This document shows positions 13,425 through 39,679 of a stretch of DNA of 64,000 bases, in pieces (the first letter of the stretch is position 1; every line of letters begins with the position of its first letter). The notes under the pieces were generated by a model that saw nothing but the letters and a program-made list of their open reading frames with translations, did not search any database and was not told the origin of the DNA. Made by a program: the position numbers and the translations under genes. Origin of the DNA: a virus; IMG/VR virus record IMGVR_UViG_3300046703_000335, positions 24,336 to 88,335 of that record; one strand, 5' to 3'.

Positions 13425-14222
13425 TTATAAATATTTGTCCAACCCTAAAATTGATTTTTTTTCTGATAAATCTTCTAATATTGGAACCTCTTCAACCCAT
13501 CGTTCAGTGTAACTTCGATCCTGTGATATAATTGGCATATCAAGATCAACTACCCACTTATTCCTGACAACACACCCAACCGGATAAGTAATCTTAAATG
13601 CTGATGTCCCTCTTTTATATGAAGTCTCTATATCATTCCAGTTGATACCCAATTGAAGCATTAACATATCCTGTTTTTGACTTCCATTTTTACCCATAAG
13701 TTGCTTATGTGAAAAATGTGCCATAGCCACTTGAGAGACTGAATTTTTTTCACAATCTCTTTCTCGCCAAATAAAATAGTTGGTAACTTCTTCCTTTGGG
13801 AGATTCCAGGCACGGGCGTCAAATATCGCAGGACCCTTTTTCTTGTATTGCTCTGGAAGATATGTCAAGCAAGCATGGTTAAACGCCGCAGTGCATATAG
13901 AAGCAGCCACGCTCTCAATCTTATTCGCCCTATTATCAAACCACGCCTCAGTACCTATACTTTGATAATCACACATTAATATGGATATCTCATCACTTTG
14001 ACAATATCCGAGTCTGGCACCCTCAATTTCACTACAGGTCTTTACCATAGCATAGTTCATGCACTTTTTTAGGTTACTATCAAACGGTCTAACTAAACCC
14101 CTTGTCCATGTATGAAATGCCTTTCCGTCAATTCTTAGCATAATGGGAATTCTGCGAACTAATAAACGAAATGCACGTTGCTCATAATCCTTCATGCGAT
14201 CCCCAAGAGAATCCTTACTCAT
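13425..14222 (-). CDS. Thg1-like protein (tRNA-His guanylyltransferase family, 3'-5' nucleotidyltransferase)
   Basis: N-terminus MKDYEQRAF..RIDGKAFHTW matches the Thg1/TLP signature (MKDYE .. R.DG.AFH). Confidence 0.7.
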   Translation of the reverse strand: MSKDSLGDRMKDYEQRAFRLLVRRIPIMLRIDGKAFHTWTRGLVRPFDSNLKKCMNYAMVKTCSEIEGARLGYCQSDEISILMCDYQSIGTEAWFDNRANKIESVAASICTAAFNHACLTYLPEQYKKKGPAIFDARAWNLPKEEVTNYFIWRERDCEKNSVSQVAMAHFSHKQLMGKNGSQKQDMLMLQLGINWNDIETSYKRGTSAFKITYPVGCVVRNKWVVDLDMPIISQDRSYTERWVEEVPILEDLSEKKSILGLDKYL

Positions 14223-14869
14223 TTTATCTCCTCAATACCTCTAAAAGCATTTTTTGTAATTGCTTCATATATAATCCTGAATCTTACAATTATAATCCGT
14301 AGGACTTTACCAACAAAGTCATCAATTAATGACCAAATAGCGGATATAGGCCAATAAAGTACCCAATGTGATATAGTCTTCTTATGCTGAATAGCTTTGG
14401 GGATTTCTCTATTACCATAACCATAATGTCTAAGCCAATCATCCTGCATATTATATGGAACATTAGTATCGAGAGTTATTTCTGGTGGACCACCCGCGTC
14501 ACTATATCTTTTTCCCAGGTCTTCTTTTCGGGATAAGAGCCATGCACATCTTTTTTCTTTATATGCAATAGCTTTCTTATTTACAAAAAGCCACCACTTA
14601 ACAAAAGACCAAAGAAATCCTATTATTATATACACAAGGATAAATATAAGAGTCCTCACTGGGTGTGAAACTACTCCATCAAAAATATTATTTTTTATTG
14701 TGAAGTTAAGAAATAAAATGTATAACAGGATATTAATTCCTGACCACACTATAAATTCTTTTTCTACCCAATAAAATAGGATAATAATCCAAAGTGTGGT
14801 AAGTATAATAGACCATACACTACCAAAGGCAAGATAAGCCCCCACTGCTTCCATAAAAATACCTCCCAT
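14219..14869 (-). CDS. Multi-pass membrane protein
   Basis: Several hydrophobic helices. Confidence 0.35.
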   Translation of the reverse strand: MGGIFMEAVGAYLAFGSVWSIILTTLWIIILFYWVEKEFIVWSGINILLYILFLNFTIKNNIFDGVVSHPVRTLIFILVYIIIGFLWSFVKWWLFVNKKAIAYKEKRCAWLLSRKEDLGKRYSDAGGPPEITLDTNVPYNMQDDWLRHYGYGNREIPKAIQHKKTISHWVLYWPISAIWSLIDDFVGKVLRIIIVRFRIIYEAITKNAFRGIEEIK

Positions 14870-14897
14870 AAAAAATTCCTCTAATTTTATATACTAT

Positions 14898-15185
14898 CTA
14901 AATAGAATAAGATGCATCTCTCGCTTTTTGATTGATACATCTGCCAATATCATTTGAGCATGCCAGCCCCATTATCCCAGAAGTTACTGTAGAACAGACA
15001 TCCTTATTAATGCAATCTTCTGGAAATTTTAATCTTTTTTTAGGAGCTATCCCCAGTTCTTTTTGTCTATTATATATCAGATTCCTAAGAGCATAGCATT
15101 CAAGTTCCTTAACCCTAAGTTCCTCCTGCATTGCGATAAGATCACAGTGACATGAATCATATCCCCCACACTTTGAACAAGCCAT
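14898..15185 (-). CDS. Cys-rich small protein
   Basis: CSKCGGYDSCHCD. Confidence 0.3.
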   Translation of the reverse strand: MACSKCGGYDSCHCDLIAMQEELRVKELECYALRNLIYNRQKELGIAPKKRLKFPEDCINKDVCSTVTSGIMGLACSNDIGRCINQKARDASYSI

Positions 15186-15198
15186 GTATAACTCTTTC

Positions 15199-15888
15199 CT
15201 ATATTATATCTGAGACATCAATATCCAGAACACCCTCATTATCTATAGTGTCAGCAAGTATAACCTGCTTAATATTCTTACAATATTCATATGCCTTTAA
15301 AATATCTTTTAATACTACCTTGTCGTACTCACTTAAGCACACGTCATTAAATTTTGGAGCAGTTCGCATCACATATGATGGATGGTATGTTGACATAGCG
15401 TTTATATGCCCAAATATCTCATTTGAGAAATTAGATATTTTTCCATGTTCTATTACCATCGCTCCAGACTGAGGAAAAAACGCTGACTTAGAAGCATTTC
15501 CTAAAAGAACAATAATACCAAGACCACGTTTTTTAAGTTCCGCTATATCTTTATAAAGATGCTTCAGACAATGTTTGTATTCCTGTGGAGTTGGTATCCT
15601 ATTACCATCCGGGTTATCTCTTATCGTATTGGAAAAAGCTACTCCAATATGTTTTTTTAGCTTTTTACGAATGAATAGAACTTGCTGACGAAGTCGTGAG
15701 CCTGCTCTCCCAATAAATGGTCTTCCTACTTTTCTTTCATCCGATCCCCCACCTTGACCAATAAATAATATGGACACCTTACCTTCTATATCAGGATGAC
15801 ATTCTGTGGGAAGAAAGCAGCATCTTGAAAAAGCAGGACAACTGTTTTCTATACAGGTACATTTCATAAGTTCGTGTTCAATTACCAT
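15199..15888 (-). CDS. Uracil-DNA glycosylase, family 4 (Fe-S type)
   Basis: Cys cluster at N-terminus. ILFIGQGGGSDE..GRPFIGRAGSRL matches the family 4 UDG motifs (GEAPG..GxPFvG.AG). Confidence 0.7.
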   Translation of the reverse strand: MVIEHELMKCTCIENSCPAFSRCCFLPTECHPDIEGKVSILFIGQGGGSDERKVGRPFIGRAGSRLRQQVLFIRKKLKKHIGVAFSNTIRDNPDGNRIPTPQEYKHCLKHLYKDIAELKKRGLGIIVLLGNASKSAFFPQSGAMVIEHGKISNFSNEIFGHINAMSTYHPSYVMRTAPKFNDVCLSEYDKVVLKDILKAYEYCKNIKQVILADTIDNEGVLDIDVSDII

Positions 15889-15894
15889 AGATAT

Positions 15895-17526: not shown

Positions 17527-17627
17527 ATTTTTTCTTAGTAGGATCTTTTTTAACAGGTTCCTTATCCTCTGTAAAATCCTTCTTAAGATCTATTTTCATC
17601 TGCTGTCTTATTCTCTTTTTCTCTTCT

Positions 17628-19548: not shown

Positions 19549-20664
19549 TTAATTTTCTTCAAGAATTCTTTTTAATCGAGTAGAACACTCTACAGAATCC
19601 GGCAGGGTATTAAAGTTGGGACGAACTCTCCGGTGGATATTTTTCCATAGTTTAAGACTATTTCCCTTATGATAATACATAAGATCTGAGACAAGATCTG
19701 GATATCGCTCAGTTACCATAAAAAACAAAGTTTTATGGCTTATGTCCGCAGGAATATCTTTCATAACTTCCTCATAAGTTTCCTTAACCCTAATATAGTC
19801 ATTATGGTGGATATCGTATATCTGCCGATACAAGAGGTCTGTAAGCTCTCTAAACTCTTCGGGTACCTCTGCTATGAAACTACGGGGGATATCCGCTTTA
19901 TCGAAGTCCCAGGCACCCCAGAATGATAGTAGAGTCATATGTGATAGAATTCTATGAATTTTACAGTATTCTGATCCCTTAACCTTAATCTTAAGACCAT
20001 TGTGGAAAGTAATAACAAAACCCTCCTCAGTCGCCGGTAGAGTCTTACAATAAGCATATAACTCATCCAGGCTATTGAACTCTACAGCCTCTACCACAGT
20101 GGCTCCTATGCGCTTTCCTTCCTCTTTAAGGGAGGTGTAGGATATCTCTTCTCCGGTTTCATTATTGATGACACCTAAAAGTATCAAATCCTCTGTATCA
20201 CCATAGTCTATTACAATTTTATTTTCTGGATAGACCATCTCAAAAAGATATGTATGCCCTTTAAGCATTTCTGTTGACCTTATATGCTTCCGGAACCATA
20301 TAGTAGCCCACTGCGCCTGATCTGATAAGAAAGATCCCTTGGTCGCTATATAATCTTGACCTTCATATCTAAAGTAAATCGCTAAGCTACCGTCAATCTT
20401 CTTAAGGGAAATAAAAGGCTTCTTCGCCAAGTCACAAAGATCAATCTTACCCATAAGCTCGGAGGCATTAAAGAATTTCTTAAAGGAACGTGAAACCACC
20501 TCTCCAGTGATCCTATTAAATATGATACCCCGTGCAGCCATAGTGATATCATCCCAATGCCCGTCATATTGACATTCCCGTGAATAGCAAAAAAGAACAA
20601 GATCATTCCACTCAGTATGTCTGACATAAGGATGGTCATAAAATTTCTTAATATCAAAAGTCAT
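19549..20664 (-). CDS. ATP-dependent RNA ligase (Rnl-type KxDG nucleotidyltransferase)
   Basis: KKIDGSLAI motif I (KxDG). N-terminal segment and size resemble the T4 Rnl / PF09414 family. A separate NAD-dependent DNA ligase is present in this window. Confidence 0.5.
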   Translation of the reverse strand: MTFDIKKFYDHPYVRHTEWNDLVLFCYSRECQYDGHWDDITMAARGIIFNRITGEVVSRSFKKFFNASELMGKIDLCDLAKKPFISLKKIDGSLAIYFRYEGQDYIATKGSFLSDQAQWATIWFRKHIRSTEMLKGHTYLFEMVYPENKIVIDYGDTEDLILLGVINNETGEEISYTSLKEEGKRIGATVVEAVEFNSLDELYAYCKTLPATEEGFVITFHNGLKIKVKGSEYCKIHRILSHMTLLSFWGAWDFDKADIPRSFIAEVPEEFRELTDLLYRQIYDIHHNDYIRVKETYEEVMKDIPADISHKTLFFMVTERYPDLVSDLMYYHKGNSLKLWKNIHRRVRPNFNTLPDSVECSTRLKRILEEN

Positions 20665-23202: not shown

Positions 23203-23862
23203 TTACGATATAAGAAAATCCCAACCTTTAACAAGCCATTCTACATAAAGATCATCTTGTTTACCATACCAACCACAAGCATAGGGGGAATTAGCTTCTA
23301 CCAAAGCCATTTCTCCAGAATCCAACAATCCGAAATCCACTGCTCCACAATAACCTTTAGGAATATCTATATCTAATTCGGGAGCATCTGGAGTATTTAG
23401 CTCATCACCAGAATACCATTCTCCTGTTAGAATCTTTCCATCAGCGATATAGTATCTCCACTCATTTATAAAGGTAACGATATCTGAACACCAATAGGGG
23501 CCTCGTTTTTTCTTTCTATAGCCCCCTACTGTAATAAAACCATTAAATCTTTTATGACGATCTGCTGGCTTAATAAATACGCCCCTATTTTGGGGCCATA
23601 AAGTCGATTTCCATACTTTTCTATAAAGGTGGTCTTTTAAAAAATCAGGATAATAATCTGGTATAGTCTTTTCACTGGGTAAGAACTTTTCGCACCAATC
23701 CACCCGACCAGAAGGAATATATCCTTCTGGTCTATCTCCCAGTCTATTACAAAGTTTATAGGGGATCCTTTTTAAGATACAGTAGCTTATGATGGCTTTC
23801 TCTTCATTAGCACAGGAACCATAAACTAAATGTGATTGTAATGCAAATCCTTTAATATCCAT
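23203..23862 (-). CDS. ATP-grasp-like protein
   Basis: The C-terminal half (FIKPADRH .. GYCGAVDFGLLDSGEMALVEANSPY) resembles ATP-grasp carboxylate-amine ligases. Confidence 0.45.
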   Translation of the reverse strand: MDIKGFALQSHLVYGSCANEEKAIISYCILKRIPYKLCNRLGDRPEGYIPSGRVDWCEKFLPSEKTIPDYYPDFLKDHLYRKVWKSTLWPQNRGVFIKPADRHKRFNGFITVGGYRKKKRGPYWCSDIVTFINEWRYYIADGKILTGEWYSGDELNTPDAPELDIDIPKGYCGAVDFGLLDSGEMALVEANSPYACGWYGKQDDLYVEWLVKGWDFLIS

Positions 23863-25837: not shown

Positions 25838-26312
25838 TTATTATAAATTCTCTCATTTTTGGTAAGTATTTAATTACAAAGGTATCTGTATAGTACCATT
25901 TATCTTGAAGACACCTAAGCATATAAATACTTACTTTAAATGTATAAAAATTATAAGTGTCAAGTATCGAATCCAATAGAAACTGATGAGTCTGAGAAAC
26001 TTTACAAATATCTAACTCAATTAGTCTATCTCGAGTCCAACTTATTAAGTGCTCAGATTTAAACTTATTTGCTAATGTCAGAAACATCGTCTTATCTTCA
26101 GCTAATAATTCGTATTCATCATCTTTATACATATTAGAATACATATAGAGATACCATCGATATGTCCCGGGAACCAGATCCGGAGGAATATACCCTGGAA
26201 CGTTATCATCCAATGAGCAATTCAGGTGATCAACTGATAATGCTAATAATCTATTTAAATATTCTGGATTAATCATTTCCACAGCCCTTAGGCTTGTATA
26301 TGCCTTTTTCAC
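25830..26312 (-). CDS. Hypothetical protein
   Basis: ORF only. Confidence 0.3.
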   Translation of the reverse strand: MKKAYTSLRAVEMINPEYLNRLLALSVDHLNCSLDDNVPGYIPPDLVPGTYRWYLYMYSNMYKDDEYELLAEDKTMFLTLANKFKSEHLISWTRDRLIELDICKVSQTHQFLLDSILDTYNFYTFKVSIYMLRCLQDKWYYTDTFVIKYLPKMREFIINE

Positions 26313-27144
26313 GAACTATTTTGTCATAATAATATACTGCGGGGACTCCTACTACTTCTACTCCAGTTTTAGTACGCTTGACAGTAGAATTATGGTTAAA
26401 TTCATTCCTGGCTATATTACCTATTATTTTCATATCCTCAAAGCATGCAAAGACATTCCCACCTAAAGTATGCCCCCCAATAAGTATGGTCTTATATCCT
26501 CGAGTGCATGTACAAAAATCATTACACTTTTTATATTCAAAGTCTACAAGATACCAATCTTCTCCATCATAATCCTTGACTTCATGGAAATCCTTGCCAC
26601 GATCATACCCTTTAAAATCCTGAATCTTAAAAGGTATACCAAATGCCTTCCATTTACGTTTATTTTCTTTTATTACTTCCTTATCATTATGCACCAGTAG
26701 CTCTTTAACATATACGGGGACGCCATTATCATGAAGGAAGTGTACGTTGTCTTCGTACATTTTTACTAAACTTGGAATATGACCCATCATTTTTCGATGA
26801 AAAGTAAATCCTACACGGTGTATCCTATCTTTATAGGGTAATAACCGTGCATAATTTTCACGACTCTGAAGGCCATTTGTGAGAAAATCAAAGCGTTCTA
26901 TTGAAGTCGATCGAATAACTGTGCAGATAGTATTAATATTTGTGGAGATGAAAGGCTCACCACCGTGAAAATGCATCAAAATATCTTCAGCGGGTAAAAG
27001 ATGTGTGTCCCTGAATAGTTTATATTGGTCAATTGAGAAAGATTGATGCTTTGTGTAATTAGAATAGAAACGTTCATGATGGAAGCAATAACTGCAACGG
27101 AGATTACAGTCAAAAAAAATTGGGTATGCAATAAATAGCTTCAA
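26269..27144 (-). CDS. Radical SAM enzyme (QueE-like cluster motif)
   Basis: CNLRCSYC (CxxxCxxC) at N-terminus and an HFHGGEPF SAM-binding motif. Confidence 0.65.
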   Translation of the reverse strand: MKLFIAYPIFFDCNLRCSYCFHHERFYSNYTKHQSFSIDQYKLFRDTHLLPAEDILMHFHGGEPFISTNINTICTVIRSTSIERFDFLTNGLQSRENYARLLPYKDRIHRVGFTFHRKMMGHIPSLVKMYEDNVHFLHDNGVPVYVKELLVHNDKEVIKENKRKWKAFGIPFKIQDFKGYDRGKDFHEVKDYDGEDWYLVDFEYKKCNDFCTCTRGYKTILIGGHTLGGNVFACFEDMKIIGNIARNEFNHNSTVKRTKTGVEVVGVPAVYYYDKIVREKGIYKPKGCGND

Positions 27145-27185
27145 AGTATATTATCTTTTATTTATATTATATGTTAATTTACAAA

Positions 27186-27586
27186 TGGAGGAGAGGGGAG
27201 TTGAACCCCTGTGTCAAGTATGATCCCTATTAATCTCTACATGCTTAGTTTAATTTGCACTACCCCTCTGTAAATATCAATTAAACAAAATTTTTAACAG
27301 AGTGCATTAAGTAATTTCGGTCCCCTTCTCTATTATGCTTTTCGGGTACCCTACTTCGTGATCTTTTAAGAGATCGGATCCCACGATTGTCCGATACTCT
27401 TTGCTACCTTTAATTAGGCAGCGATTGAGCTTGCAACACCTAAACTGATATTATCAGCAAAGGCGAGAGCAAACTTAACAGCATAATCTTTTGCAATTAT
27501 ACTTTAACGGATGATTTACGAGGCCAACCGTTATCCTCAACATGCAATTAATACTTCACCTACCTGATCGAAACCAGTACTCCCCC
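27186..27586 (-). ncRNA. ssrA: tmRNA (ssrA), about 401 nt, one-piece
   Basis: Minus-strand 5' end GGGGGAGTACTGGTTTCGATCAGG resembles the E. coli tmRNA 5' end. An internal CGGTTGGCCTCGTAAA block matches the PK1 region. The 3' end ..CACAGGGGTTCAACTCCCCTCTCCTCC-A forms a T-arm plus acceptor. The acceptor pairs 7/7 with the 5' GGGGGAG, including a G3-U70 pair and an A discriminator, which are alanine identity elements. Candidate tag ORF: GCA AAA GAT ... GCT GCC TAA. Confidence 0.8.
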
Positions 27587-28055: not shown

Positions 28056-28730
28056 TTAATTAACTCTACATATTTTAAAGTCCTTCAAGCTTATAAGATA
28101 ATTTTCTTTTACACCAGTATCAACAAATCTTATTAAAGATTCTGTACCGACAATTACAGCCAAAAGTGCAGTATTGCGTGCAAGGGGATACTCACAAACA
28201 TCTATCCCTGTACCTTTTTTAGGTACACGATATCTCTCGTTCCAGGTAACTTCTGCGCAATCCTCTGATAAGCCTATGTGCATACAATCGATCTTATTAA
28301 CTAAGCAATGATCCATAACTATTTTACGACTCTCCGGATTATCAAAGCCATCAATTACTATCGAATCAGCTTTTAAAAATTTTCGAACATTGGAAGCCTC
28401 AAGTTTTTTATCGATAGGATCTATAGTAACTTTCATAACATTGAAGAGATGTGACCGGATAGCTGCAACTTTCAGTTGACCTACATCCCGACTATTCCAA
28501 ATTTGAGTATTTCGGTTATGTTCCTCTACTCTATCAAAATCGATTACAGTCATTCTCTGAAAACCCTGACGTACCAGATTATCTGCGAGGTTCGAACCGA
28601 TCGCACCTACCCCGCATAACGTGATATGCTGTGCAGCTATCTTCTTTAAAAGATCTTCCCCACGGTAAGCTCCCTCATGTACAAAAGTTTTCATTATCTC
28701 ACCTTTTTTATATTTTCTATGACATTGCAT
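28056..28730 (-). CDS. ThiF/MoeB/E1-like adenylyltransferase
   Basis: TLCGVGAIGSNLADNL Rossmann motif, VIDFDRVEEHNRNTQ, C-terminal IDVCEY cysteine. Confidence 0.7.
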   Translation of the reverse strand: MQCHRKYKKGEIMKTFVHEGAYRGEDLLKKIAAQHITLCGVGAIGSNLADNLVRQGFQRMTVIDFDRVEEHNRNTQIWNSRDVGQLKVAAIRSHLFNVMKVTIDPIDKKLEASNVRKFLKADSIVIDGFDNPESRKIVMDHCLVNKIDCMHIGLSEDCAEVTWNERYRVPKKGTGIDVCEYPLARNTALLAVIVGTESLIRFVDTGVKENYLISLKDFKICRVN

Positions 28731-29975: not shown

Positions 29976-30015
29976 CAATAAAAAAGAAAGGGGAAGACTT
30001 TTCCCGGTCTTCCCC
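29976..30015 (-). terminator. Rho-independent terminator
   Basis: Minus strand GGGGAAGAC-CGGGAAAA-GTCTTCCCC followed by TTTCTTTTTTATT. Confidence 0.7.
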
Positions 30016-30101
30016 CTCAAATTATATCTCACCCGAGAGTTGTAATCTCAGGATTAGATAGTGATGGTCAATAAATAATACCCTCGCCCTTTATAATAAG
30101 T

Positions 30102-30192
30102 CTCCCACTCTACCGCTGAGCTATAGACCCCCGAAGTTATCTATTACAAAATAACTTAGAGGGTCTAAATGGATTTGAACCACTGACAGGAG
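30102..30192 (-). tRNA. Candidate circularly permuted tRNA gene B. The 3' half (anticodon-stem 3' strand CTCCT, T-arm AGTGG-TTCAAAT-CCATT, acceptor TAGACCC) at 30160-30192 precedes the 5' half (GGGTCTA-TA-GCTC-AGCGGTA-GAGT-GGGAG) at 30102-30130.
   Basis: Acceptor strands pair 7/7 (GGGTCTA/TAGACCC). Anticodon-stem strands pair 5/5 (GGGAG/CTCCT). D-loop carries GG and the T-loop is TTCAAAT. The T-arm lies upstream of the D-arm on the coding strand, the reverse of a normal gene. The 29-nt linker contains a hairpin, AAGTTAT..ATAACTT. Confidence 0.5.
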
Positions 30193-30313
30193 TGTTTTAA
30201 GGCTACCTATTCTTTATTAACCACCTTCAATTTTGAATCTTGGACATTCAAAACACTAATCATCAACTTAAATCTGGTATGCAAAAAAATAAAAATAATC
30301 TTTTGCCTTTTAC

Positions 30314-30392
30314 AGAAGTACTCTACCAAACTGAGCTACCTTCTCCATATTTTTTAGGGGAGAAGGAGAGGAATCGAACCTCCGCGTCTTCT
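30314..30392 (-). tRNA. Candidate circularly permuted tRNA gene A. The 3' half (AGAAG-ACGC-GGAGG-TTCGATT-CCTCT-CCTTCTC-C) at 30359-30392 precedes the 5' half (GAGAAGG-TA-GCTC-AGTTTGGTA-GAGT-A-CTTCT) at 30314-30345. Linker is 13 nt.
   Basis: Acceptor pairs 7/7 (GAGAAGG/CCTTCTC). Anticodon stem pairs 5/5 (CTTCT/AGAAG). Canonical GTTCGATTCC T-arm and GCTCAGTTTGGTAGAG D-arm. No matching partner exists in the canonical gene order. Leader and trailer are complementary (AAAAG/CTTTT repeats) next to the anticodon stem. Confidence 0.55.
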
Positions 30393-30441
30393 GATATAGA
30401 AAAAGACAAAAGTGCTTTTAGGATAATTAACCTACTCGGGG

Positions 30442-31215
30442 CTAATTAACTTTAAACCCCTGATTAATATAATTAAAAAATTTCAGTCCAACTTTTGCTG
30501 ACTCAGTTTCCTGAGCATTTGCTTTTGACCGGGCGATCTTCACACCAGAGATCAGGCAATCAATACGATTGAGCAACTGACTCTTCTGTTTTGGAGATAA
30601 ACCTCCACTAGCGTAGGTTTGTGTCCAAGTTCCAACTGCTTCATCCGACATAACAATCTCAGTTTGTGCTTGAAACTTATCAGTAGCTTCAGCCTTGGTA
30701 ATAACCTTTGGAATTTTCTTTGTTCTGATACGTTCTATTGGTTCAGATTTCCATACCCCTGTTCGAGTTACATCATCTGACCAAACCTTTGAGGGATCAA
30801 TTGTAGGAATCTCTTCATAGACCTTCCTAACTCTTTCCAGAGCGGATTCCATCTGTACCAGAAATGTTACAGGGGCCTTTTCAAGAATAATCTCTGTAGT
30901 GCCATCAGGAAGCTCTACAACGACATCCGCAGAGGCACTCTGATTACCACGTTCTTTCTGAAGTTCAATATCAATAAAACGAACTATCGATGCTTGAGAA
31001 TAATCAAGTTTATCCTTAACTGTTGTGACCATAGGAGTAAACTCTTCATCAGGGCGATCCTTATCCTGGTCATTGAAAGGAGAATAACTCTTACGTGATT
31101 CAATGAAGTGTGCCGAGCGCTGATTGAATGTTTTAAGAGTTTCATCAATAATCTTGGCAAAGACATCCTTTGCATCTTTTTCTACTGCAAGAAGCTCATA
31201 CAATTTACCACCCAT
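30442..31215 (-). CDS. Hypothetical protein (possibly structural)
   Basis: ORF only. Confidence 0.35.
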   Translation of the reverse strand: MGGKLYELLAVEKDAKDVFAKIIDETLKTFNQRSAHFIESRKSYSPFNDQDKDRPDEEFTPMVTTVKDKLDYSQASIVRFIDIELQKERGNQSASADVVVELPDGTTEIILEKAPVTFLVQMESALERVRKVYEEIPTIDPSKVWSDDVTRTGVWKSEPIERIRTKKIPKVITKAEATDKFQAQTEIVMSDEAVGTWTQTYASGGLSPKQKSQLLNRIDCLISGVKIARSKANAQETESAKVGLKFFNYINQGFKVN

Positions 31216-33622: not shown

Positions 33623-34036
33623 TTAAATTGGTAGCCAACAAATAAAAAATGGACCATAAGACCAAAAGTCTACAGAAGATTTTTTTACAATAGTGGATCT
33701 ATCTTTACGAAGACCTCCTACAGAATAGCAATAATACGCAGAATGATTCCCGCACCCAATCCCACAGAGATATGTCTTATATATTGATTTCACCCAAGAT
33801 CTCATTGTAGAATTATCTGTGGCACTTGGTGTGACATTTGATATACCTGGATGAGTATGATACCACCCAATTACCCAAGGACTATTCGCTTTTGAATAAT
33901 TCATTTCCACTTTAGCAGAAGATCCTATAGCATGATATCTACGAATCCCAATGAAAAATCTTATACCTGGAAGAAACTTTTCCAAGCGAATTCCATACAA
34001 GAACCAGCATTCTTCTTTAAAGTTTAGTTTCGACAT
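33623..34036 (-). CDS. JAB/MPN (JAMM) metalloprotease domain protein
   Basis: E .. WYHTHPGISNVTPSATD matches the JAMM motif E-HxHx7Sx2D. Confidence 0.6.
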   Translation of the reverse strand: MSKLNFKEECWFLYGIRLEKFLPGIRFFIGIRRYHAIGSSAKVEMNYSKANSPWVIGWYHTHPGISNVTPSATDNSTMRSWVKSIYKTYLCGIGCGNHSAYYCYSVGGLRKDRSTIVKKSSVDFWSYGPFFICWLPI

Positions 34037-35700: not shown

Positions 35701-36558
35701 TTATTGAACATTATTAAATCGATGCAACACACCCGTCTGTTGAGCTTCCCTAACCACAGTGATTAAGCTCTTCAAGTCAAACCTGTGATCATTTCCAGAT
35801 AAACAAATACCTGCGGCAATGACCATTCGCTTGTTATCTTTCGAAATATGGCTGGTGAACTCCTCACCATCCACCTTATATGTCACACTAAAGTGGTCAC
35901 TTCTTTCTACGAACCGAACAAACTCTCCCCCGGCATGTTCCACATCTTTTTTTAAGACATTTTCTTTCTTATCCTCCAAAAACCTTTTATCAAAGGTCGT
36001 TCGAAGAGAATAAGCCATTTTTTCCTCAAATGAGAGATTTGCAAACTTAATCTCACCAGGGTCCACTAACTTTTCCAAACTATCCCGAAGATATTCCGCT
36101 TTAGTAGGGTCATTCCCTGTATCTACACTCTCAAACCAGAAATTAGCACCGTCATAACGAACGATAACACGGTCAAAATTCATGACCGTATCATCAAATA
36201 ATAGCACCGGTATCAGCCCACGGAATGGCAACCCATATTTATTAGCCTTATCCGGGATAGCTAGGAATTCTTTGTCTCTTCTCAGAGTCAGAGTCACTCT
36301 TAGCCTACCAAGACGGCGTAAATAGAGCTCACGTTCAGTAAAGTCTGCATCACCGGTTATTTTAGCAGAAATAGAATTTAAAGGGCGGATTTTATACCAC
36401 CCAGGATCAACATTAGGAACTTTGAATGTATATACCAGCCCATCGATAGTAGTTACTACAGAGTTATTATAGAAAATAGGAGAAATGAACTCCAGATTTG
36501 TGATCTGTTGTTCTTTCCTTCCTAAATTACTAATAATATCAAGGACATTAATAGACAT
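35701..36558 (-). CDS. Hypothetical protein
   Basis: ORF only. Confidence 0.35.
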   Translation of the reverse strand: MSINVLDIISNLGRKEQQITNLEFISPIFYNNSVVTTIDGLVYTFKVPNVDPGWYKIRPLNSISAKITGDADFTERELYLRRLGRLRVTLTLRRDKEFLAIPDKANKYGLPFRGLIPVLLFDDTVMNFDRVIVRYDGANFWFESVDTGNDPTKAEYLRDSLEKLVDPGEIKFANLSFEEKMAYSLRTTFDKRFLEDKKENVLKKDVEHAGGEFVRFVERSDHFSVTYKVDGEEFTSHISKDNKRMVIAAGICLSGNDHRFDLKSLITVVREAQQTGVLHRFNNVQ

Positions 36559-36573
36559 ACAATCTCCCGAGTA

Positions 36574-38136
36574 TTACCTAAAAGATCCACGAGAAATCAA
36601 AGGCGTTTCCATGATCTCGAAAACCAGGTCAAGCTTAGATTTACGAGATAAAAGAGGGATCAATCCCGGTAATGCATAATAATCATTACCTTCAGGGGTA
36701 TAGATATCATATTCAATACCCGCCCTCTTCAAGTTACTAGAAAAGGTATTATCCGCAGGTCCTATATGAATGATCACCACATTTGGACGAACATTAAATG
36801 TCTTTGCATACTGTTCGTACACTGTAGTAAACATAGGACTAGCATTTTCACCCTCATCCGTTATCACCACAATAGTTTCCACACTCTTTTTCTTTAACAA
36901 CAAATAATTAAGTGCACAACCCATCGAAGTTGACCCTCCGGCACGTATGGGTCTAAATGCATTCTCCCAGTCGGTCAAAGAAGTTCCTTTTGCCTCAATC
37001 ACTGCTGGAGTTGTATCAAATGCTACCACAGTAAGTTCTGCTATTGTAGCACCAGAAATCAATGCTGCGGTATTCTTACCAACTTCAATTGCTTTATCCA
37101 TTGATCCGGACCGGTCAACAAATACAGCGGTTGATACTGAAATCTGACCACTCTTTTTGACCTGAGCATCTGCTACTTTATCCAATTGTGCTAAAACATC
37201 TACATCAAGGATACGACCAGTTTTAGCAGCTGTTTTGGACTTAAGTGTCGACACATTCTTTGACTTTTCAGCCTTTTTCAATTTTTCCTGAATAAGTGCT
37301 TTTGTAGCTTCATTAGCCATAGCACCCTTCTCTTCAAGAGAAGCCATGTTATTAATGACTTCCATAGAAGACATGCTATTGATAAGAGCCACGAGTATAG
37401 TTGGAGTAATTTTATCGATCAACCCAATTGCGATCGTATATGGAATTTTATTTTCCACAATCATCTTTGCTGCATCAGCCGGTTCTGCTTCTGATATCTT
37501 TTTCAAGATAGTCAGCTTAGAGTCTTCTGGTATTTTCCCATCAAAAAGAATAGCTTGAGCTTGTGCTGAAGGTTTTACTTTAATTTTCTTGTAAAGGCTC
37601 TTCAAATCAGCTCGATTCTTCAAAGCGACTGTATCAAATCGATCCTTATCCGCTTCCAACCAACGCAAATAATTTTTGATTTCAGTTTCAAAAGAGGAAG
37701 TGGTATTTCTTTTCATACCTACAGTCTTCTCTTCGATCCGAACTTCATCGATTGACTTCTTATCGATCTTGATCTTTTTACCTGTCTTTATCCGAATCTT
37801 AACCTTTTTACCTCGGATAAAACCAAGTATTTTATTCTTCATGAAAACCGCATGTTTTCTGAAAAGAGCAAGACCGACTTCACGATTATCGATAAAGGGA
37901 TCCGTAATAAGCATGGCTGCAAAGATCTCGTTATGATCCCTGATCTCGCCCTTAGCGAGATACCAGCAAGCAAGATGCGCATAGAACAACGGATCATTAT
38001 CCCGAATATCCTCATGGATCTTTTTTAAAACGTCCGTATCACGATGAGGACAAGTCATGAATGAATTGAGCACCCTAACACGGATATCCCCTTCAACTAC
38101 AGGAGCTGCAGGGGGAATAACTCTACGAGTTGTCAT
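36574..38136 (-). CDS. Ro60/Rsr-like protein (TROVE domain plus C-terminal vWA domain)
   Basis: N-terminal DNDPLFYAHLACW resembles the conserved Ro60/Rsr block NDPALFALALC. C-terminal vWA MIDAS motif VFVDRSGSM. Length of 520 aa is typical of Ro60. Confidence 0.6.
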   Translation of the reverse strand: MTTRRVIPPAAPVVEGDIRVRVLNSFMTCPHRDTDVLKKIHEDIRDNDPLFYAHLACWYLAKGEIRDHNEIFAAMLITDPFIDNREVGLALFRKHAVFMKNKILGFIRGKKVKIRIKTGKKIKIDKKSIDEVRIEEKTVGMKRNTTSSFETEIKNYLRWLEADKDRFDTVALKNRADLKSLYKKIKVKPSAQAQAILFDGKIPEDSKLTILKKISEAEPADAAKMIVENKIPYTIAIGLIDKITPTILVALINSMSSMEVINNMASLEEKGAMANEATKALIQEKLKKAEKSKNVSTLKSKTAAKTGRILDVDVLAQLDKVADAQVKKSGQISVSTAVFVDRSGSMDKAIEVGKNTAALISGATIAELTVVAFDTTPAVIEAKGTSLTDWENAFRPIRAGGSTSMGCALNYLLLKKKSVETIVVITDEGENASPMFTTVYEQYAKTFNVRPNVVIIHIGPADNTFSSNLKRAGIEYDIYTPEGNDYYALPGLIPLLSRKSKLDLVFEIMETPLISRGSFR

Positions 38137-38194
38137 ATCTTATCTCCAATCTTATATAGTATCTTATCTGTTATGGCACTCTATATAAAGTACC

Positions 38195-38461
38195 TTAGCT
38201 TTTACCAAACGGAGTATTAGCCCTTACTGTTATGTTCCCGTTTGAGCTAATTTCTATAGCATGGTCCCTGAATTCATCCATGCCTACATCATATTTCTGG
38301 GCTAATGCCATACGAATTTGATCATGATTAACAGATGATGGTGTTATCACTGTTCCGATAGTGATACCCAATGCTTCAAATCGATCTTGTGAAAAAAGAT
38401 CGCTAAACTTAAGATCATCCTGTCTTCCTCGAAACATTACATGGATATCCTGCATACACAC
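38195..38461 (-). CDS. Hypothetical small protein
   Basis: ORF only. Confidence 0.3.
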   Translation of the reverse strand: MCMQDIHVMFRGRQDDLKFSDLFSQDRFEALGITIGTVITPSSVNHDQIRMALAQKYDVGMDEFRDHAIEISSNGNITVRANTPFGKS

Positions 38462-38510
38462 CTCCTATAGATGTTGTTAATATAATGTTGTGTCAAAATT
38501 TTTTAAACTT

Positions 38511-38822
38511 TTATTTACAAATTTTTAATCGCCATTGAACAAATATATTAAGTTTTGAATTATTGATATATAATGCCACATTATCAAATTCAGTTTCATA
38601 GAGAAATTCATGTATTTTATTACCATCACCATAAAAATTCTTAAGTAACCATCTTATTAACAATTCTTCTATATCCCATCCTTTAAGCTCTCTGAACTCC
38701 AATATCTTAATTGCTTTATGCACTACTTCTTCATAAAACTCAATAGAGCCCGTAGCACCCTTACGACCTTTAAGAATATTATGTAACACTAAACAATCAG
38801 TTATAAGATAAGTATTCTTCAT
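38511..38822 (-). CDS. Hypothetical small protein
   Basis: ORF only. Confidence 0.3.
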   Translation of the reverse strand: MKNTYLITDCLVLHNILKGRKGATGSIEFYEEVVHKAIKILEFRELKGWDIEELLIRWLLKNFYGDGNKIHEFLYETEFDNVALYINNSKLNIFVQWRLKICK

Positions 38823-38852
38823 ACTATAACTAATATACTTTTATAAAACGAG

Positions 38853-38902
38853 AATACAAAGTAAAAAAGAAACCCCGATAGAACTTTTTGCTCTACCGGG
38901 GT
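38853..38902. terminator. Bidirectional rho-independent terminator
   Basis: GAAACCCCG-16 nt-CGGGGTTTC perfect 9-bp stem, flanked by an A-run and a T-run. Confidence 0.65.
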
Positions 38903-39100
38903 TTCTTTTATGAAGATCGTAAGAAAAATCAATAAGAAGTAGAGCACCTTATGGGTGGAGCAGTTGGGTTACTTTGGGATACCCACTTATGGTATCCAAG
39001 AAACTTTTTTAATGCTGATGTTTTGTAACTTTTTCTCATATCCGTGCTATCCTAAAATATTTAAAAAATTACGCAGAAGTTAGGGATGCTAATTTTTTGG

Positions 39101-39173
39101 CTTCTAATGATGGACTTGAACCATCGACGCATTTCTTATAAGGAAATTGCCCTACCAACTGGGCTAATTAGAA
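39101..39173 (-). tRNA. tRNA, anticodon UAU (Ile, AUA codon). CCA encoded at 39098-39100.
   Basis: Minus strand TTCTAAT-TA-GCCC-AGTTGGTA-GGGC-A-ATTTC-CTTATAA-GAAAT-GCGTC-GATGG-TTCAAGT-CCATC-ATTAGAA-G-CCA. All stems pair perfectly. Confidence 0.75.
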
Positions 39174-39536
39174 AATGTAAGCAACCAAAGTAATTGCGTA
39201 ATTTTTATTATTGTTTGTTTCAATCCGCGCTTTTCAGCGACTATATAAAAATGAGCTAATATAAGAATCTCTACCTAAGTCGTTCGTACTATATGATGAC
39301 CAGATACCCATACTGGGCAGTGATCATCAAGTTTTTTTTACCCAAAAAAAATGTAAGTCCAAACTATAATGGTAAAAATTCTATTAATTCGTTTGTTCGT
39401 TTCAATCCACGCTTTTCAGCGACTGTACAAAAGTAAAAAAGTTGAAACTACAGAAGTCGTGCATGCTAGTCTGAGGGATTTGAACCCCCTACCTATTGAT
39501 TAGAAGTCAATTGCTCTACCAAATGAGCTAATGTAA
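39174..39536 (-). repeat. Degenerate tandem array of ~175-bp units, each starting (minus strand) with CTTACATT
   Basis: AATGTAAG on the plus strand at 39174-39181, 39346-39353 and 39529-39536. Conserved AGTCGCTGAAAAGCGYGGATTGAAAC segments at about 39214-39247 and 39394-39430, each carrying a CGCT-GAAA-AGCG tetraloop hairpin. Confidence 0.45.
39464..39536 (-). tRNA. tRNA-Arg(UCU)-like element whose 5' acceptor strand does not pair. Positions 1-8 are replaced by the CTTACATT unit motif. Possible pseudogene or repair substrate.
   Basis: Good D-arm GCTC-ATTTGGTA-GAGC, anticodon arm ATTGA-CTTCTAA-TCAAT, T-arm GGGGG-TTCAAAT-CCCTC. The 3' acceptor AGACTAG has no complementary 5' strand. Confidence 0.45.
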
Positions 39537-39679
39537 GCCTTCACTGTAATTGTAGTTTCAACCAAGTACCCTATTCATCAGGGTTACATCTTAATAATAC
39601 TAAATAATTTTATATTATGCAAATACTATTTTAAAATGAAATCCAATGGATATATAATATAGATCGTATTAAAATATTT

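What the first reader, a model, noticed from the sequence alone, without database searches (positions are those of the whole stretch)
13425..39600. Dispersed RNA repair and quality-control toolkit: Thg1-like enzyme, RNA ligase, Ro60-like protein, tmRNA and non-canonical tRNA genes
One virus encodes five related components. First, a Thg1-like 3'-5' nucleotidyltransferase (13425-14222), an enzyme family that repairs tRNA 5' ends. Second, an Rnl-type RNA ligase (19549-20664). Third, a Ro60-like RNA-binding protein. Fourth, a tmRNA. Fifth, tRNA genes that would need unusual maturation: permuted halves and a 5'-truncated Arg-like tRNA. Together these suggest a self-contained tRNA biogenesis and repair system. 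Its likely roles are to counter host anticodon nucleases or to mature its own oddly organised tRNAs. The combination with permuted tRNA genes is not a described system to my knowledge.
Basis: inference. Interest (0 to 1): 0.75.

Follow-up and report, generated by a model that had tools for sequence, protein, structure and literature searches.

The report
Phage Ro60, Y RNAs, tRNA cassettes
A huge phage does carry the listed RNA-repair genes, but its "odd tRNA genes" are probably partner RNAs of a very divergent Ro60 protein, including an apparently undescribed array of tRNA and tRNA-like cassettes whose anticodons change rapidly between related phages.

Summary
All five listed components are in the sequence.
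- Bacterial-type Thg1-like protein: 13425-14222.
- Rnl1-family RNA ligase: 19549-20664.
- tmRNA: 27183-27586.
- A 520-aa protein (36574-38136) that is Ro60-like by fold only.
- tRNA-like elements.

The genes are scattered among unrelated genes. This gene set is already described for jumbo phages (PMC7824862).

The "odd tRNAs" are not tRNA genes awaiting repair.
- The "permuted halves" (30086-30410) are two YrlA-type Y RNAs: T arm, closed acceptor-like hairpin, D arm, and no anticodon arm.
- The "5'-truncated tRNA-Arg" (39472-39531) lacks both acceptor strands. It is the cargo of one of three cassettes (39064-39563) just upstream of the Ro60-like gene.

All three cassettes share a platform with strong covariation. 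I found 44 such cassettes in 12 related phage loci. Their cargo is a whole tRNA, an acceptor-less tRNA body, a permuted tRNA, or a hairpin.

The same tRNA body carries different anticodons in close relatives. Shortened type I-C CRISPR repeats separate the cassettes.

Nothing links Thg1 or the ligase to these RNAs. Verdict: a known toolkit, plus a new variant of the Ro60/Y-RNA system.

The parts
13425..14222 (-). Bacterial-type Thg1-like protein (TLP), a 3'-5' nucleotidyltransferase, 265 aa
   Evidence: Pfam Thg1 6e-29 plus Thg1C. PHROG 4717 1e-90. PDB 4kgk (B. thuringiensis TLP) 1.5e-67, against 1e-10 to 1e-15 for eukaryotic Thg1. The RIDG and QSDEIS stretches line up with 4kgk.
19549..20664 (-). 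Rnl1-family (T4 RnlA-like) RNA ligase, 371 aa
   Evidence: Pfam PF09511 77 bits against cut-off 28. PHROG 562 7e-56. TIGR02308 82.6 bits, below its equivalog cut-off of 242. Motif I KIDGS present.
27183..27586 (-). tmRNA
   Evidence: Rfam RF00023 133 bits against cut-off 47. ARAGORN tag peptide AKDYAVKFALAFADNISLGVASSIAA. No cassette platform flanks it.
30300..30410 (-). YrlA-like Y RNA 1: terminal stem, T arm, closed acceptor-like hairpin, D arm, no anticodon arm
   Evidence: Rfam YrlA 29.5 bits, E 2.9e-4, below the cut-off of 69. Orthologues score 38.2 and 36.5 bits. Consensus fold has 11 pairs with compensatory changes in 3 sequences.
30086..30203 (-). YrlA-like Y RNA 2: same module order, with an extended acceptor-like hairpin
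   Evidence: T arm at 30184 lies 5' of the D arm at 30123. Consensus fold with 6 compensatory pairs. The L177 orthologue hits YrlA at 25.7 bits, E 0.0028.
29987..30018 (-). Intrinsic terminator closing the Y RNA locus
   Evidence: 12-bp G+C-rich stem followed by a T run.
36574..38136 (-). Very divergent Ro60-like protein: helical-repeat (TROVE-like) ring plus a C-terminal vWA domain, 520 aa
   Evidence: AlphaFold model pLDDT 83. The 13 best Foldseek PDB hits are all Ro60/TROVE, E about 1e-10, TM about 0.6, full length. A profile of the family finds only the phage phiLo TROVE protein, E 0.27. The pattern D341, S343, G344, S345 is invariant. Pfam VWA_2 is weak.
35701..36558 (-). Conserved 285-aa protein immediately downstream of the Ro60-like gene; function unknown, possibly tandem OB-like domains
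   Evidence: Present next to the Ro60-like gene in L001, L004 and L005. Its 147 detected homologues include proteins on contigs of the same lengths as those carrying the Ro60-like gene. Foldseek matches are weak only (E at least 1.3e-3, TM at most 0.2).
38195..38822 (-). Two small conserved ORFs (88 and 103 aa) between the cassette array and the Ro60-like gene
   Evidence: Same two ORFs in L001, L004 and L005. No family match.
38865..38909 (-). Intrinsic terminator closing the cassette array
   Evidence: 20-bp stem followed by a T run. Conserved in L001, L004 and L005.
39064..39206 (-). Cassette 3: platform carrying a complete tRNA-Ile(UAU) with encoded CCA (39098-39173)
   Evidence: ARAGORN and Rfam tRNA 62.8 bits. 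RNAfold gives outer stem, 6x6 loop, inner helix and cloverleaf, z -3.8.
39217..39241 (-). Shortened type I-C CRISPR repeat mimic, GTCGCTGAAAAGCGCGGATTGAAAC
   Evidence: Two copies against 0 expected by chance. A 15-mer taken from the other copy (R1, which has T at the variable position) ends genuine CRISPR repeats in many bacteria. It matches the published type I-C repeat (PMC5071653).
39264..39382 (-). Cassette 2: same platform carrying two hairpins with no tRNA features
   Evidence: RNAfold z -4.9. Orthologous cargo shows compensatory changes in L001, L005 and L006. Absent from the closest relative L263.
39399..39423 (-). Shortened type I-C CRISPR repeat mimic, GTCGCTGAAAAGCGTGGATTGAAAC
39440..39563 (-). 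Cassette 1: platform carrying a tRNA body (D, anticodon UCU and T arms; 39472-39531) with no acceptor strands
   Evidence: Rfam tRNA positions 7-64 only, 51 bits. RNAfold z -3.9. The same architecture with other anticodons occurs in seven relatives.
39555..39587 (-). Degenerate repeat-like hairpin plus GGTTGAAAC; it overlaps the 5' strand of the cassette 1 outer stem
   Evidence: Read from the sequence. Counterparts in L001 and L004.
39594..39623 (-). Promoter-like site upstream of the array (TTTGCA, 18 nt, TATTAT)
   Evidence: Consensus scan. The flanking sequence is conserved in L001, L004, L005 and L263. Not evidence of function.

Best explanation
The region holds several separately encoded RNA-maintenance functions typical of huge phages. 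It is not one coupled pathway.

Inferred from family membership:
- The Thg1-like enzyme probably rebuilds damaged 5' ends of tRNAs.
- The Rnl1-type ligase probably reseals broken tRNAs.
- The tmRNA frees stalled ribosomes.

The non-canonical "tRNA genes" most likely belong to the fourth function, a very divergent Ro60 protein and its non-coding partner RNAs.
- Two RNAs at 30.09-30.41 kb are YrlA-type Y RNAs: a terminal stem carrying a tRNA mimic made of a T arm, a closed acceptor-like hairpin and a D arm.
- Three RNAs at 39.06-39.56 kb lie directly upstream of the Ro60-like gene. They share a Y-RNA-like platform:
  - an outer stem of 10-27 bp formed by the two ends;
  - a conserved internal loop (5' AUUACA, 3' GACUUC);
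  - a 9-bp inner helix;
  - the conserved bases UACAU just 5' of the cargo.
- The platform carries interchangeable cargo. In this window the cargo is a tRNA body without acceptor strands, a pair of hairpins, and a complete tRNA-Ile with CCA.

The array appears to be transcribed from one promoter to one terminator.

Shown here: family and fold assignments, RNA structures with covariation, adjacency to the Ro60-like gene and its conservation, and rapid anticodon change.

Inferred only: that the platform binds the Ro60-like protein, and that the tRNA-like cargo tethers tRNA-binding factors or acts as a decoy in a conflict over tRNAs.
For: Family assignments.

Ro60 fold.

YrlA-like RNAs:
- YrlA is the best Rfam family in the window and in two related genomes.
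- The consensus folds show compensatory pairs.

Platform:
- RNAfold predicts the same architecture independently for all three cassettes, z -3.8 to -4.9.
- 44 cassettes were found in 12 loci.
- 43 distinct outer stems pair at 96.5% within a cassette, against 48% between cassettes.
- The inner helix is 80.8% paired, against 64% in shuffles (0 of 500 shuffles reach it) and 31-43% when slid. It has 59 cells with changes on both sides.

Link to Ro60:
- Cassettes lie 0.7-1.5 kb upstream of the Ro60-like gene in every relative with at least 54% identity that was examined, except L014, where none was detected.
- In IMG/VR, genuine cassettes occurred only on contigs that carry that gene.
- In metagenomes, 7 of 8 informative loci had the gene.

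Published precedent: phage Ro60 with Y-like RNAs encoded upstream of its gene (PMC12135203), and YrlA tRNA mimics next to Ro60 in over 250 bacteria and phages (PMC4201824).

One promoter-like site and one terminator per locus.
Against: - No binding data exist.
- The platform lacks the conserved Ro-binding motif of YrlA (GNCGAAN0-1G). Only 2 of 44 cassettes have it.
- No cassette matches any Rfam family except tRNA.
- About a third of the cargos (14 of 44) are ordinary-looking tRNAs, most with encoded CCA. This fits a pre-tRNA processing cassette as well as a Y RNA.
- More distant homologues of the Ro60-like gene sit in ordinary tRNA clusters without the platform. Adjacency may therefore only reflect where tRNA clusters lie.
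- One genuine cassette (L234) has no Ro60-like gene within 4 kb downstream.
- The Ro60 assignment rests on a predicted fold at 12-14% identity.
- The YrlA hits are below Rfam's cut-off.
Confidence: 0.55

Rival explanations
1. The odd elements are real tRNA genes whose transcripts must be completed by the phage's own enzymes. The Thg1-like protein would fill in the missing 5' acceptor strand of the Arg-like tRNA. The RNA ligase would circularise permuted precursors to make normal tRNAs.
For: - Both enzymes are real.
- Thg1-like homologues occur on contigs of the same lengths as those carrying the Ro60-like gene or its 285-aa neighbour: 238919, 131126, 40335 and 85614 bp.
- In relatives, some platform cargos are permuted tRNAs that keep an anticodon arm. 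Two have an encoded CCA in the acceptor loop (L015:2135, L234).
- Some tRNA cargos have a mismatched pair 1-72 or lack CCA (L005:2459, L006:1624, L008:1154), by my reading of the sequences.
Against: - In this window the permuted elements have no anticodon arm at all.
- The Arg-like element has no 3' acceptor strand to act as template. The bases after its T arm (AGACUAGC) are the platform's conserved 3' arm, which also follows complete tRNAs after their CCA.
- That element stays acceptor-less in seven relatives while its anticodon changes.
- No healing enzyme (kinase or phosphatase) was found in the window.
- The genes are 5-22 kb apart. The ORF overlapping the Thg1 gene encodes a membrane protein.
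Confidence: 0.07
2. The platform is a pre-tRNA expression and processing cassette that has nothing to do with Ro60. The leader and trailer pair into a duplex that a host or phage nuclease cuts, for example RNase III, RNase P at UACAU, or Cas5 at the flanking repeats. The cut releases tRNAs and other small RNAs. The Ro60-like gene merely lies beside the phage's tRNA cluster.
For: - 14 of 44 cargos are canonical tRNAs, most with encoded CCA. The tRNA begins 0-1 nt after UACAU (and reading of the sequences).
- Distant Ro60-like homologues lie inside ordinary tRNA clusters, up to 20 tRNAs in L025.
- Single promoter and terminator suggest a polycistronic precursor that must be cut.
- Processing-type CRISPR repeats lie between cassettes.
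Against: - Six cargos are tRNA bodies that can never be aminoacylated, and about 15 are unrelated hairpins. Both kinds are conserved, with compensatory changes.
- The platform's unpaired bases are more conserved than a simple nuclease duplex would need.
- Genuine cassettes were found almost only beside the Ro60-like gene.
Confidence: 0.15
3. The array is mainly an anti-defence island that works without Ro60. The tRNA-like cargos would be decoys or replacements aimed at host nucleases that cut tRNA anticodon loops. The shortened type I-C repeats would be RNA anti-CRISPRs that trap Cas5 and Cascade.
For: - Anticodons are substitution hot spots on otherwise conserved bodies. Between the window and L263 (Ro60-like protein 93% identical) they change UCU to UAU and UAU to CAA.
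- One tRNA body carries 5 different anticodons in 6 phages, with entropy peaking at the anticodon.
- Acceptor-less bodies cannot serve translation.
- The repeats match the type I-C repeat. A type I-C repeat mimic has been shown to inhibit CRISPR (PMC10651486).
Against: - No host, no nuclease target and no expression data are known.
- Anticodon change could also track the codon use of different hosts.
- The repeats are missing from several relatives that keep the cassettes (L001, L005, L006).
- This reading does not explain the constant adjacency to the Ro60-like gene.
Confidence: 0.2

Closest known systems
Ro60 (Rsr) with YrlA-type Y RNAs of bacteria and phages (Chen et al. 2014, PMC4201824; Rfam RF02553); Thermus phage phiLo Ro60 with Yrl1 and Yrl2 (PMC12135203)
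   Same: - A ring-shaped TROVE plus vWA protein, matched here by fold.
- Partner RNAs are encoded close to its gene, several per genome.
- Each RNA has a stem formed by its 5' and 3' ends, an internal loop, and then a tRNA-mimicking module.
- The two RNAs at 30086-30410 have exactly the YrlA module order (T arm, acceptor-like hairpin, D arm), and YrlA is their best Rfam match.
   Different: - The protein is not recognisable as TROVE by sequence (12-14% identity).
- The YrlA-like RNAs score below Rfam's cut-off and lie 6 kb from the gene.
- The cassettes next to the gene use a different conserved platform without the GNCGAA motif.
- The cassettes carry cargo not described for Y RNAs: complete tRNAs with CCA, tRNA bodies with a full anticodon arm but no acceptor, and permuted tRNAs that keep the anticodon arm.
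- The cassettes form arrays of up to about 7 per locus, some separated by CRISPR repeat mimics.
RNA repair gene sets of jumbo phages (Iyer, Anantharaman, Krishnan, Burroughs and Aravind 2021, PMC7824862, section 3.4.9)
   Same: The same inventory: Rnl1/Rnl2/RtcB ligases, a ROT/TROVE protein with a tRNA-like partner RNA, sporadic Thg1, and many phage tRNAs. It is interpreted there as a counter to host RNases that attack tRNAs.
   Different: - That survey does not describe the cassette platform, anticodon switching or repeat mimics.
- No polynucleotide kinase/phosphatase, RlaP or CCA-adding enzyme was found in this window.
Bacterial Thg1-like proteins (for example B. thuringiensis TLP, PDB 4kgk)
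   Same: About 50% identity to Bacillus homologues. The match to 4kgk is full length, and the stretches I take to be catalytic are conserved. From general knowledge, these enzymes repair 5'-truncated tRNAs using the 3' strand as template.
   Different: It is phage-encoded. No substrate was identified here, and the proposed substrate lacks a template strand.
Circularly permuted tRNA genes of Cyanidioschyzon merolae and some archaea (from general knowledge)
   Same: The T arm and 3' half are encoded upstream of the 5' half. In some relatives the cargo has a CCA-containing acceptor loop and an anticodon arm.
   Different: - The window's permuted elements have no anticodon arm.
- No bulge-helix-bulge junction or splicing endonuclease is evident.
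- The junction in relatives lies at the variable loop and is occupied by the platform.
RNA anti-CRISPRs (Racr, solitary repeat units; Camara-Wilpert et al. 2023, PMC10651486)
   Same: A phage-encoded, spacer-less mimic of a CRISPR repeat. The GTCGC start and the last 12-14 bases match the type I-C repeat, with a hairpin in between.
   Different: - The hairpin is shortened.
- The copies bracket structured RNAs of 120-140 nt instead of standing alone or beside anti-CRISPR protein genes.
- The function is untested.

Membership tests
Thg1 / Thg1-like protein (TLP) | Thg1 catalytic domain and C-terminal domain above the curated cut-offs | tested here: met
   PF04446 101 bits against 29.2, and PF14413 30.2 bits against 26.3. 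PHROG 4717 1.4e-90.
Thg1 / Thg1-like protein (TLP) | Belongs to the bacterial TLP branch rather than the eukaryotic G-1-adding Thg1 branch | tested here: met
   4kgk (B. thuringiensis TLP) 1.5e-67 over residues 4-243. Eukaryotic Thg1 structures score 1e-10 to 1e-15.
Thg1 / Thg1-like protein (TLP) | Template-dependent 3'-5' addition on a 5'-truncated tRNA | not testable with these tools
Needs an enzyme assay.
Rnl1 (T4 RnlA) RNA ligase | Rnl1 nucleotidyltransferase domain with the lysine motif KxDG | tested here: met
   PF09511 77.4 bits against 28.3. KIDGS at residues 88-92.
Rnl1 (T4 RnlA) RNA ligase | Equivalog of T4 RnlA (NCBIfam TIGR02308 cut-off) | tested here: not met
   82.6 bits against a cut-off of 242. 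It is a family member, not a close equivalent of the T4 enzyme.
Ro60 / TROVE | TROVE domain detectable by sequence | tested here: not met
   No Pfam TROVE, PHROG or NCBIfam hit. No Ro60 by phmmer against PDB. The family profile finds only the phage phiLo TROVE protein, at E 0.27.
Ro60 / TROVE | Helical-repeat ring followed by a vWA domain with a D-x-S-x-S metal site | tested here: met
   Foldseek ranks 1-13 are all Ro60/TROVE, E 1e-10 to 8e-8, TM 0.5-0.6, 530-585 aligned columns. D341, S343, G344 and S345 are invariant in 26 homologues. This rests on a predicted model (pLDDT 83).
Ro60 / TROVE | Binds Y RNAs or misfolded RNAs | not testable with these tools
   Needs immunoprecipitation or a gel-shift assay.
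YrlA Y RNA (RF02553), elements at 30086-30410 | Module order: terminal stem, T arm, acceptor-like stem-loop, D arm, terminal stem | tested here: met
   Rfam alignment over model positions 1-114. Consensus folds with compensatory pairs.
YrlA Y RNA (RF02553), elements at 30086-30410 | Score at or above the Rfam gathering threshold (69 bits) | tested here: not met
   29.5 bits in the window. 38.2, 36.5 and 25.7 bits in orthologues. YrlA is the best family each time.
YrlA Y RNA (RF02553), elements at 30086-30410 | Encoded near a Ro60 gene | tested here: inconclusive
   The elements lie 6 kb downstream of the Ro60-like gene, with about 15 ORFs between. Both are kept together in L177 and L178.
YrlA / Y RNA, cassettes at 39064-39563 | Conserved Ro-binding motif GNCGAAN0-1G in the 5' strand | tested here: not met
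   Present in 2 of 44 cassettes. That position lies within a covarying helix.
YrlA / Y RNA, cassettes at 39064-39563 | Stem from the two ends, internal loop, effector module; encoded next to the Ro60 gene | tested here: met
   for structure. for adjacency.
5'-truncated tRNA (substrate for Thg1-like repair) | Intact 3' acceptor strand opposite a missing 5' strand | tested here: not met
   The bases after the T arm (AGACUAGC) align with the platform's 3' arm (AAAUUAGC), which follows CCA in complete-tRNA cassettes. Only 3 of 7 acceptor positions could pair.
Circularly permuted tRNA gene | Both halves present, including the anticodon arm, so that rejoining gives a complete tRNA | tested here: not met
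   No anticodon arm in either window element. Met by some cassette cargos in relatives only.
tmRNA | Rfam tmRNA above cut-off, with a tag reading frame | tested here: met
   133 bits against 47, full model 1-374. ARAGORN tag peptide ending in AA.
RNA anti-CRISPR (solitary repeat unit) | Spacer-less copy of a CRISPR repeat in a mobile element | tested here: met
   Two copies against 0 expected. The 15-mer is the 3' end of genuine repeats with a period of about 66 nt. It equals the published type I-C repeat end.
RNA anti-CRISPR (solitary repeat unit) | Inhibits the matching CRISPR-Cas system | not testable with these tools
   Needs a plaque or interference assay.

The most novel reading that the evidence does not exclude
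The cassette platform may be a new class of modular phage RNA.
- It would be a plug-in stem-loop platform, bound by a very divergent Ro60, on which tRNAs, permuted tRNAs and acceptor-less tRNA bodies are displayed.
- The anticodons of these cargos switch rapidly between phages.
- Cassettes would be gained and lost by recombination at flanking type I-C CRISPR repeat mimics.
- The system would serve to intercept or out-compete host nucleases that target tRNAs, and perhaps to hijack Cas5 for its own processing.
Probability: 0.3. Interest if true: 0.85.

Novelty: new variant of a known kind. Interest (0 to 1): 0.62.

Why it matters
What Ro60 and Y RNAs do is still unclear. In bacteria they are tied to tRNA damage and RNA repair operons (PMC7790460).

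This phage lineage offers a natural experiment:
- a Ro60-like protein conserved at 56-86% identity among the 120 closest of 480 detected homologues, several on contigs of 130-470 kb;
- arrays of partner-like RNAs beside it whose only fast-changing part is the anticodon.

If the cargos are decoys or replacements for tRNAs attacked by host defences, the anticodon repertoire would show which host tRNAs are under attack. It would also tie Ro60 directly to the phage-host conflict over tRNAs.

The platform could also be useful as a stable display scaffold for tRNA-like RNAs.

The protein toolkit itself is ordinary for huge phages.

Tried and rejected
- Megablast of 25 kb against GenBank phages found no match.
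- The search for related loci with single proteins (the Ro60-like protein and DUF7873) found nothing. An alignment query worked.
- Rfam found no family for the cassettes other than tRNA. Permuted cargos in relatives do not hit YrlA.
- The platform motif is not elsewhere in the window and does not flank the tmRNA.
- I first read the element at 39472-39531 as a 5'-truncated tRNA. I rejected this once alignment with other cassettes showed that its 3' "acceptor strand" is part of the platform.
- I considered that CUGAUGA and GAAAC upstream of cassette 1 might form a hammerhead ribozyme core. I rejected this because relatives have other loop sequences there.
- I looked for RNA-repair partners next to Thg1 and the ligase. 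The 216-aa neighbour of Thg1 is a membrane protein. The 151-aa and 666-aa neighbours of the ligase have no matches.
- The 285-aa neighbour of the Ro60-like gene has no sequence match. Its model gives only weak OB/S1-like matches, so the result is inconclusive.
- No kinase/phosphatase, RtcB, CCA-adding enzyme or SmpB was found among the window ORFs scanned. ORFs from about 56 to 64 kb were not scanned.
- Metagenome hit L219 was a false positive.

Full report
**Setting.** The window is AT-rich (34.8% G+C) and nearly all genes lie on the minus strand. It looks like part of a huge phage.
- It encodes a family A DNA polymerase interrupted by a LAGLIDADG domain, an NAD-dependent DNA ligase, many glycosyltransferases and many ORFs with no family.
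- It has no close relative in GenBank phages.
- Homologues of its proteins lie on metagenomic and IMG/VR contigs of 130-470 kb.

**Proteins and tmRNA.**
- ORF 13425-14222 is a Thg1-family enzyme (Pfam Thg1 6e-29 plus Thg1C; PHROG 4717 1e-90).
  - Its closest solved relative is the Bacillus thuringiensis Thg1-like protein 4kgk, at 1.5e-67 over the full length. Eukaryotic Thg1 scores only 1e-10 to 1e-15.
  - It is therefore a bacterial-type TLP. From general knowledge, that branch repairs 5'-truncated tRNAs in a template-dependent way.
- ORF 19549-20664 is an Rnl1-family RNA ligase (Pfam 77 bits; PHROG 562 7e-56; motif KIDGS). It falls below the NCBIfam cut-off for a T4 RnlA equivalent.
- The tmRNA at 27183-27586 is unambiguous.

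**The Ro60-like protein.** The only candidate is the 520-aa ORF at 36574-38136.
- By sequence it shows only a weak vWA match.
- Its AlphaFold model, built on 26 homologues, has pLDDT 83.
- The 13 best PDB matches are all Ro60/TROVE proteins, including Deinococcus Rsr, Xenopus and human Ro60, and the Ro60 of Thermus phage phiLo. E is about 1e-10, TM about 0.6, over the full length.
- A sequence profile of the family finds only the phiLo TROVE protein, and weakly (E 0.27).
- A D-x-S-G-S pattern typical of vWA metal sites is invariant.
- I accept "Ro60-like" at the level of fold.

**The "permuted halves".** A scan for T arms and D-arm fragments found two elements at 30086-30410 in which the T arm precedes the D arm.
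- Rfam's best match there is YrlA, the tRNA-mimicking Y RNA that partners bacterial Ro60. It scores 29.5 bits, E 2.9e-4, below the cut-off of 69.
- The locus is conserved downstream of the same DUF7873 gene in two related genomes.
- The orthologues again hit YrlA as the best family, at 38.2, 36.5 and 25.7 bits.
- Consensus folds give a terminal stem, T arm, closed acceptor-like hairpin and D arm, with 11 and 6 compensatory pairs.
- There is no anticodon arm, so these cannot become tRNAs. They are Y RNAs of a known kind (PMC4201824).

**The "5'-truncated tRNA-Arg".** The element at 39472-39531 matches the tRNA model only at positions 7-64. It is one of three units in the 860-bp gap upstream of the Ro60-like gene: 39440-39563, 39264-39382 and 39064-39206.
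- All three have the same build:
  - an outer stem of 12-13 bp formed by the two ends;
  - a 6x6 internal loop (5' AUUACA, 3' GACUUC);
  - an inner helix of about 9 bp;
  - the bases UACAU, then the cargo;
  - an A-rich stretch ending in WGC.
- RNAfold finds this architecture independently for each unit (z -3.9, -4.9, -3.8).
- The cargos are a tRNA body with D, anticodon (UCU) and T arms; two hairpins; and a complete tRNA-Ile(UAU) with CCA.
- The bases after the T arm of the first cargo (AGACUAGC) align with the platform's AAAUUAGC, which follows CCA in the tRNA cassette.
- So the Arg-like element has neither acceptor strand, and nothing there could template a Thg1-like enzyme.

**Is the platform real?** Using relatives of the Ro60-like gene, I found 44 cassettes in 12 distinct loci, up to about 7 per locus.
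- The 43 outer stems of at least 10 bp are all different in sequence. They pair at 96.5% within a cassette and 48% between cassettes.
- The inner helix is 80.8% paired. Shuffles give 64% (0 of 500 reach the observed value) and slid partners give 31-43%. It has 59 cells with changes on both sides, and its third pair runs through GCU/AGC, GCA/UGC, GCG/CGC and ACU/AGU.
- Cargo types are 14 canonical tRNAs, 6 acceptor-less tRNA bodies, 6 permuted tRNAs that keep an anticodon arm, 3 partial tRNA mimics and about 15 other hairpins.

**Link to the Ro60-like gene.**
- In every relative with at least 54% identity that I examined except L014, where no cassette was detected, cassettes lie upstream of the gene within the 3 kb fetched, 0.7-1.5 kb where measured.
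- A 19-base platform pattern found genuine cassettes in IMG/VR only on contigs that carry the gene. The other 12 hits had no outer stem.
- In metagenomes, 13 of 120 hits had an outer stem of at least 9 bp. Seven carried the gene, four were too short to tell, one was false and one was an exception.
- Against a specific link: more distant homologues of the gene lie in ordinary tRNA clusters without the platform. The platform also lacks the YrlA Ro-binding motif, which is present in 2 of 44 cassettes.

**Rapid change.**
- In the closest relative (L263, Ro60-like protein 93% identical) the platforms are almost unchanged. Cassette 1 carries UAU instead of UCU, and cassette 3 carries CAA instead of UAU.
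- Cassette 2 and one flanking repeat are exactly absent from L263.
- Across six phages, the cassette 3 tRNA body carries the anticodons UAU, CAA, UAC, GCA and CUU. Column entropy peaks at the anticodon.

**Repeats between cassettes.** GTCGCTGAAAAGCG(T/C)GGATTGAAAC occurs twice, against 0 expected. Related copies lie in the arrays of L004, L010 and L013.
- Its last 15 bases are the end of genuine CRISPR repeats in many phyla.
- They match the published type I-C repeat (PMC5071653).
- These are shortened type I-C repeat mimics. A type I-C mimic has been shown to act as an RNA anti-CRISPR (PMC10651486).

**Transcription.** Each RNA locus has one strong terminator. The cassette array has one conserved promoter-like site. 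This suggests polycistronic precursors.

**Is it one system?** The genes are 5-22 kb apart, among unrelated genes.
- The ORF overlapping Thg1 is a membrane protein.
- The ligase's neighbours have no matches.
- No end-healing enzyme was found among the ORFs scanned.
- Thg1-like homologues do sit on contigs of the same lengths as those carrying the Ro60-like gene or its neighbour. The set therefore appears conserved in the lineage, but that is co-inheritance and does not show coupling.
- The same inventory is described for jumbo phages as a counter to RNases that attack tRNAs (PMC7824862).

**Verdict.**
- The toolkit is known.
- The permuted elements are Y RNAs of a known kind.
- The truncated tRNA is the cargo of a platform RNA.
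- The platform array beside a divergent Ro60 was not found in Rfam or in the papers searched. I rate it a new variant of the Ro60/Y-RNA system.
- Binding to the Ro60-like protein, and a decoy or tether role, are inferences.

Noticed in passing
window 39399-39423, 39217-39241, degenerate copy 39555-39587 (all minus strand); also L004:3041-3067, L010 about 1830-1948, L013 about 2385-2558: Shortened mimics of the type I-C CRISPR repeat (hairpin plus GGATTGAAAC) separate the cassettes. They are candidates for RNA anti-CRISPRs, or for processing of the array by host Cas5.
   Followed up: partly
window 39472-39531 and 39098-39173, compared with L263, L001, L006, L209, L182: Anticodons are substitution hot spots on otherwise conserved tRNA and tRNA-like bodies. 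Examples are UCU to UAU and UAU to CAA at 93% protein identity. One body carries five anticodons in six phages.
   Followed up: partly
window 39242-39423, compared with L263: Cassette 2 plus one repeat is exactly absent from the closest relative. The boundaries lie at the two repeats, which suggests that cassettes are gained or lost by recombination between repeats.
   Followed up: partly
window 38910-39063 (minus strand): A conserved stretch lies between cassette 3 and the terminator. In it, GCUCUAC can pair with GGUAGAGC in the 5' arm of the terminator. This looks like an attenuator and gives weak His and Thr leader hits. It is conserved in L001, L004, L005 and L263.
   Followed up: no
window 30215-30290 (minus strand): Between the two YrlA-like RNAs there is a conserved GCRUACCAG motif, resembling the platform's GCWUACAU, and a conserved hairpin. 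This may be a third small RNA.
   Followed up: no
L005:2459-2603, L006:1624-1764, L008:1154-1310: Some cassette tRNAs in relatives start with the platform's conserved U and have a mismatched pair 1-72 (U-U or U-C). Some lack CCA.
   Followed up: no
L015:2135-2292, L234:286-540, L010:2008-2161, L011:2441-2595, L012:2526-2676, L008:2352-2502: Relatives carry circularly permuted tRNAs inside the platform, with the order T arm, acceptor, D arm, anticodon arm. Two have an encoded CCA in the acceptor loop. The junction is at the variable loop.
   Followed up: partly
L020, L021, L022, L023, L025: More distant homologues of the Ro60-like gene (28-42% identity) lie inside ordinary tRNA clusters, up to 20 tRNAs. 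No platform is detectable there apart from single units in L019 and L020.
   Followed up: partly
window 28056-28730 and 33623-34036: A ThiF-family E1-like protein (1e-26) and a weak JAB-domain match (1e-3) suggest a ubiquitin-like conjugation module. Nearby are a radical SAM protein (26269-27144), an R2K ATP-grasp protein (23203-23862) and a DUF7873 protein (30442-31215).
   Followed up: no
window 52217-56065: The family A DNA polymerase contains a LAGLIDADG domain, probably an intein.
   Followed up: no
L010:1109-1294: A HEARO RNA scores above the Rfam cut-off (90 bits) a few hundred bases upstream of the cassette array in a related phage.
   Followed up: no
window 35701-36558: A 285-aa protein always follows the Ro60-like gene; its detected homologues include ones on contigs of the same lengths as those carrying the Ro60-like gene. 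Its model has several beta-barrel domains with weak OB/S1-like matches. It may be an RNA-binding partner.
   Followed up: partly
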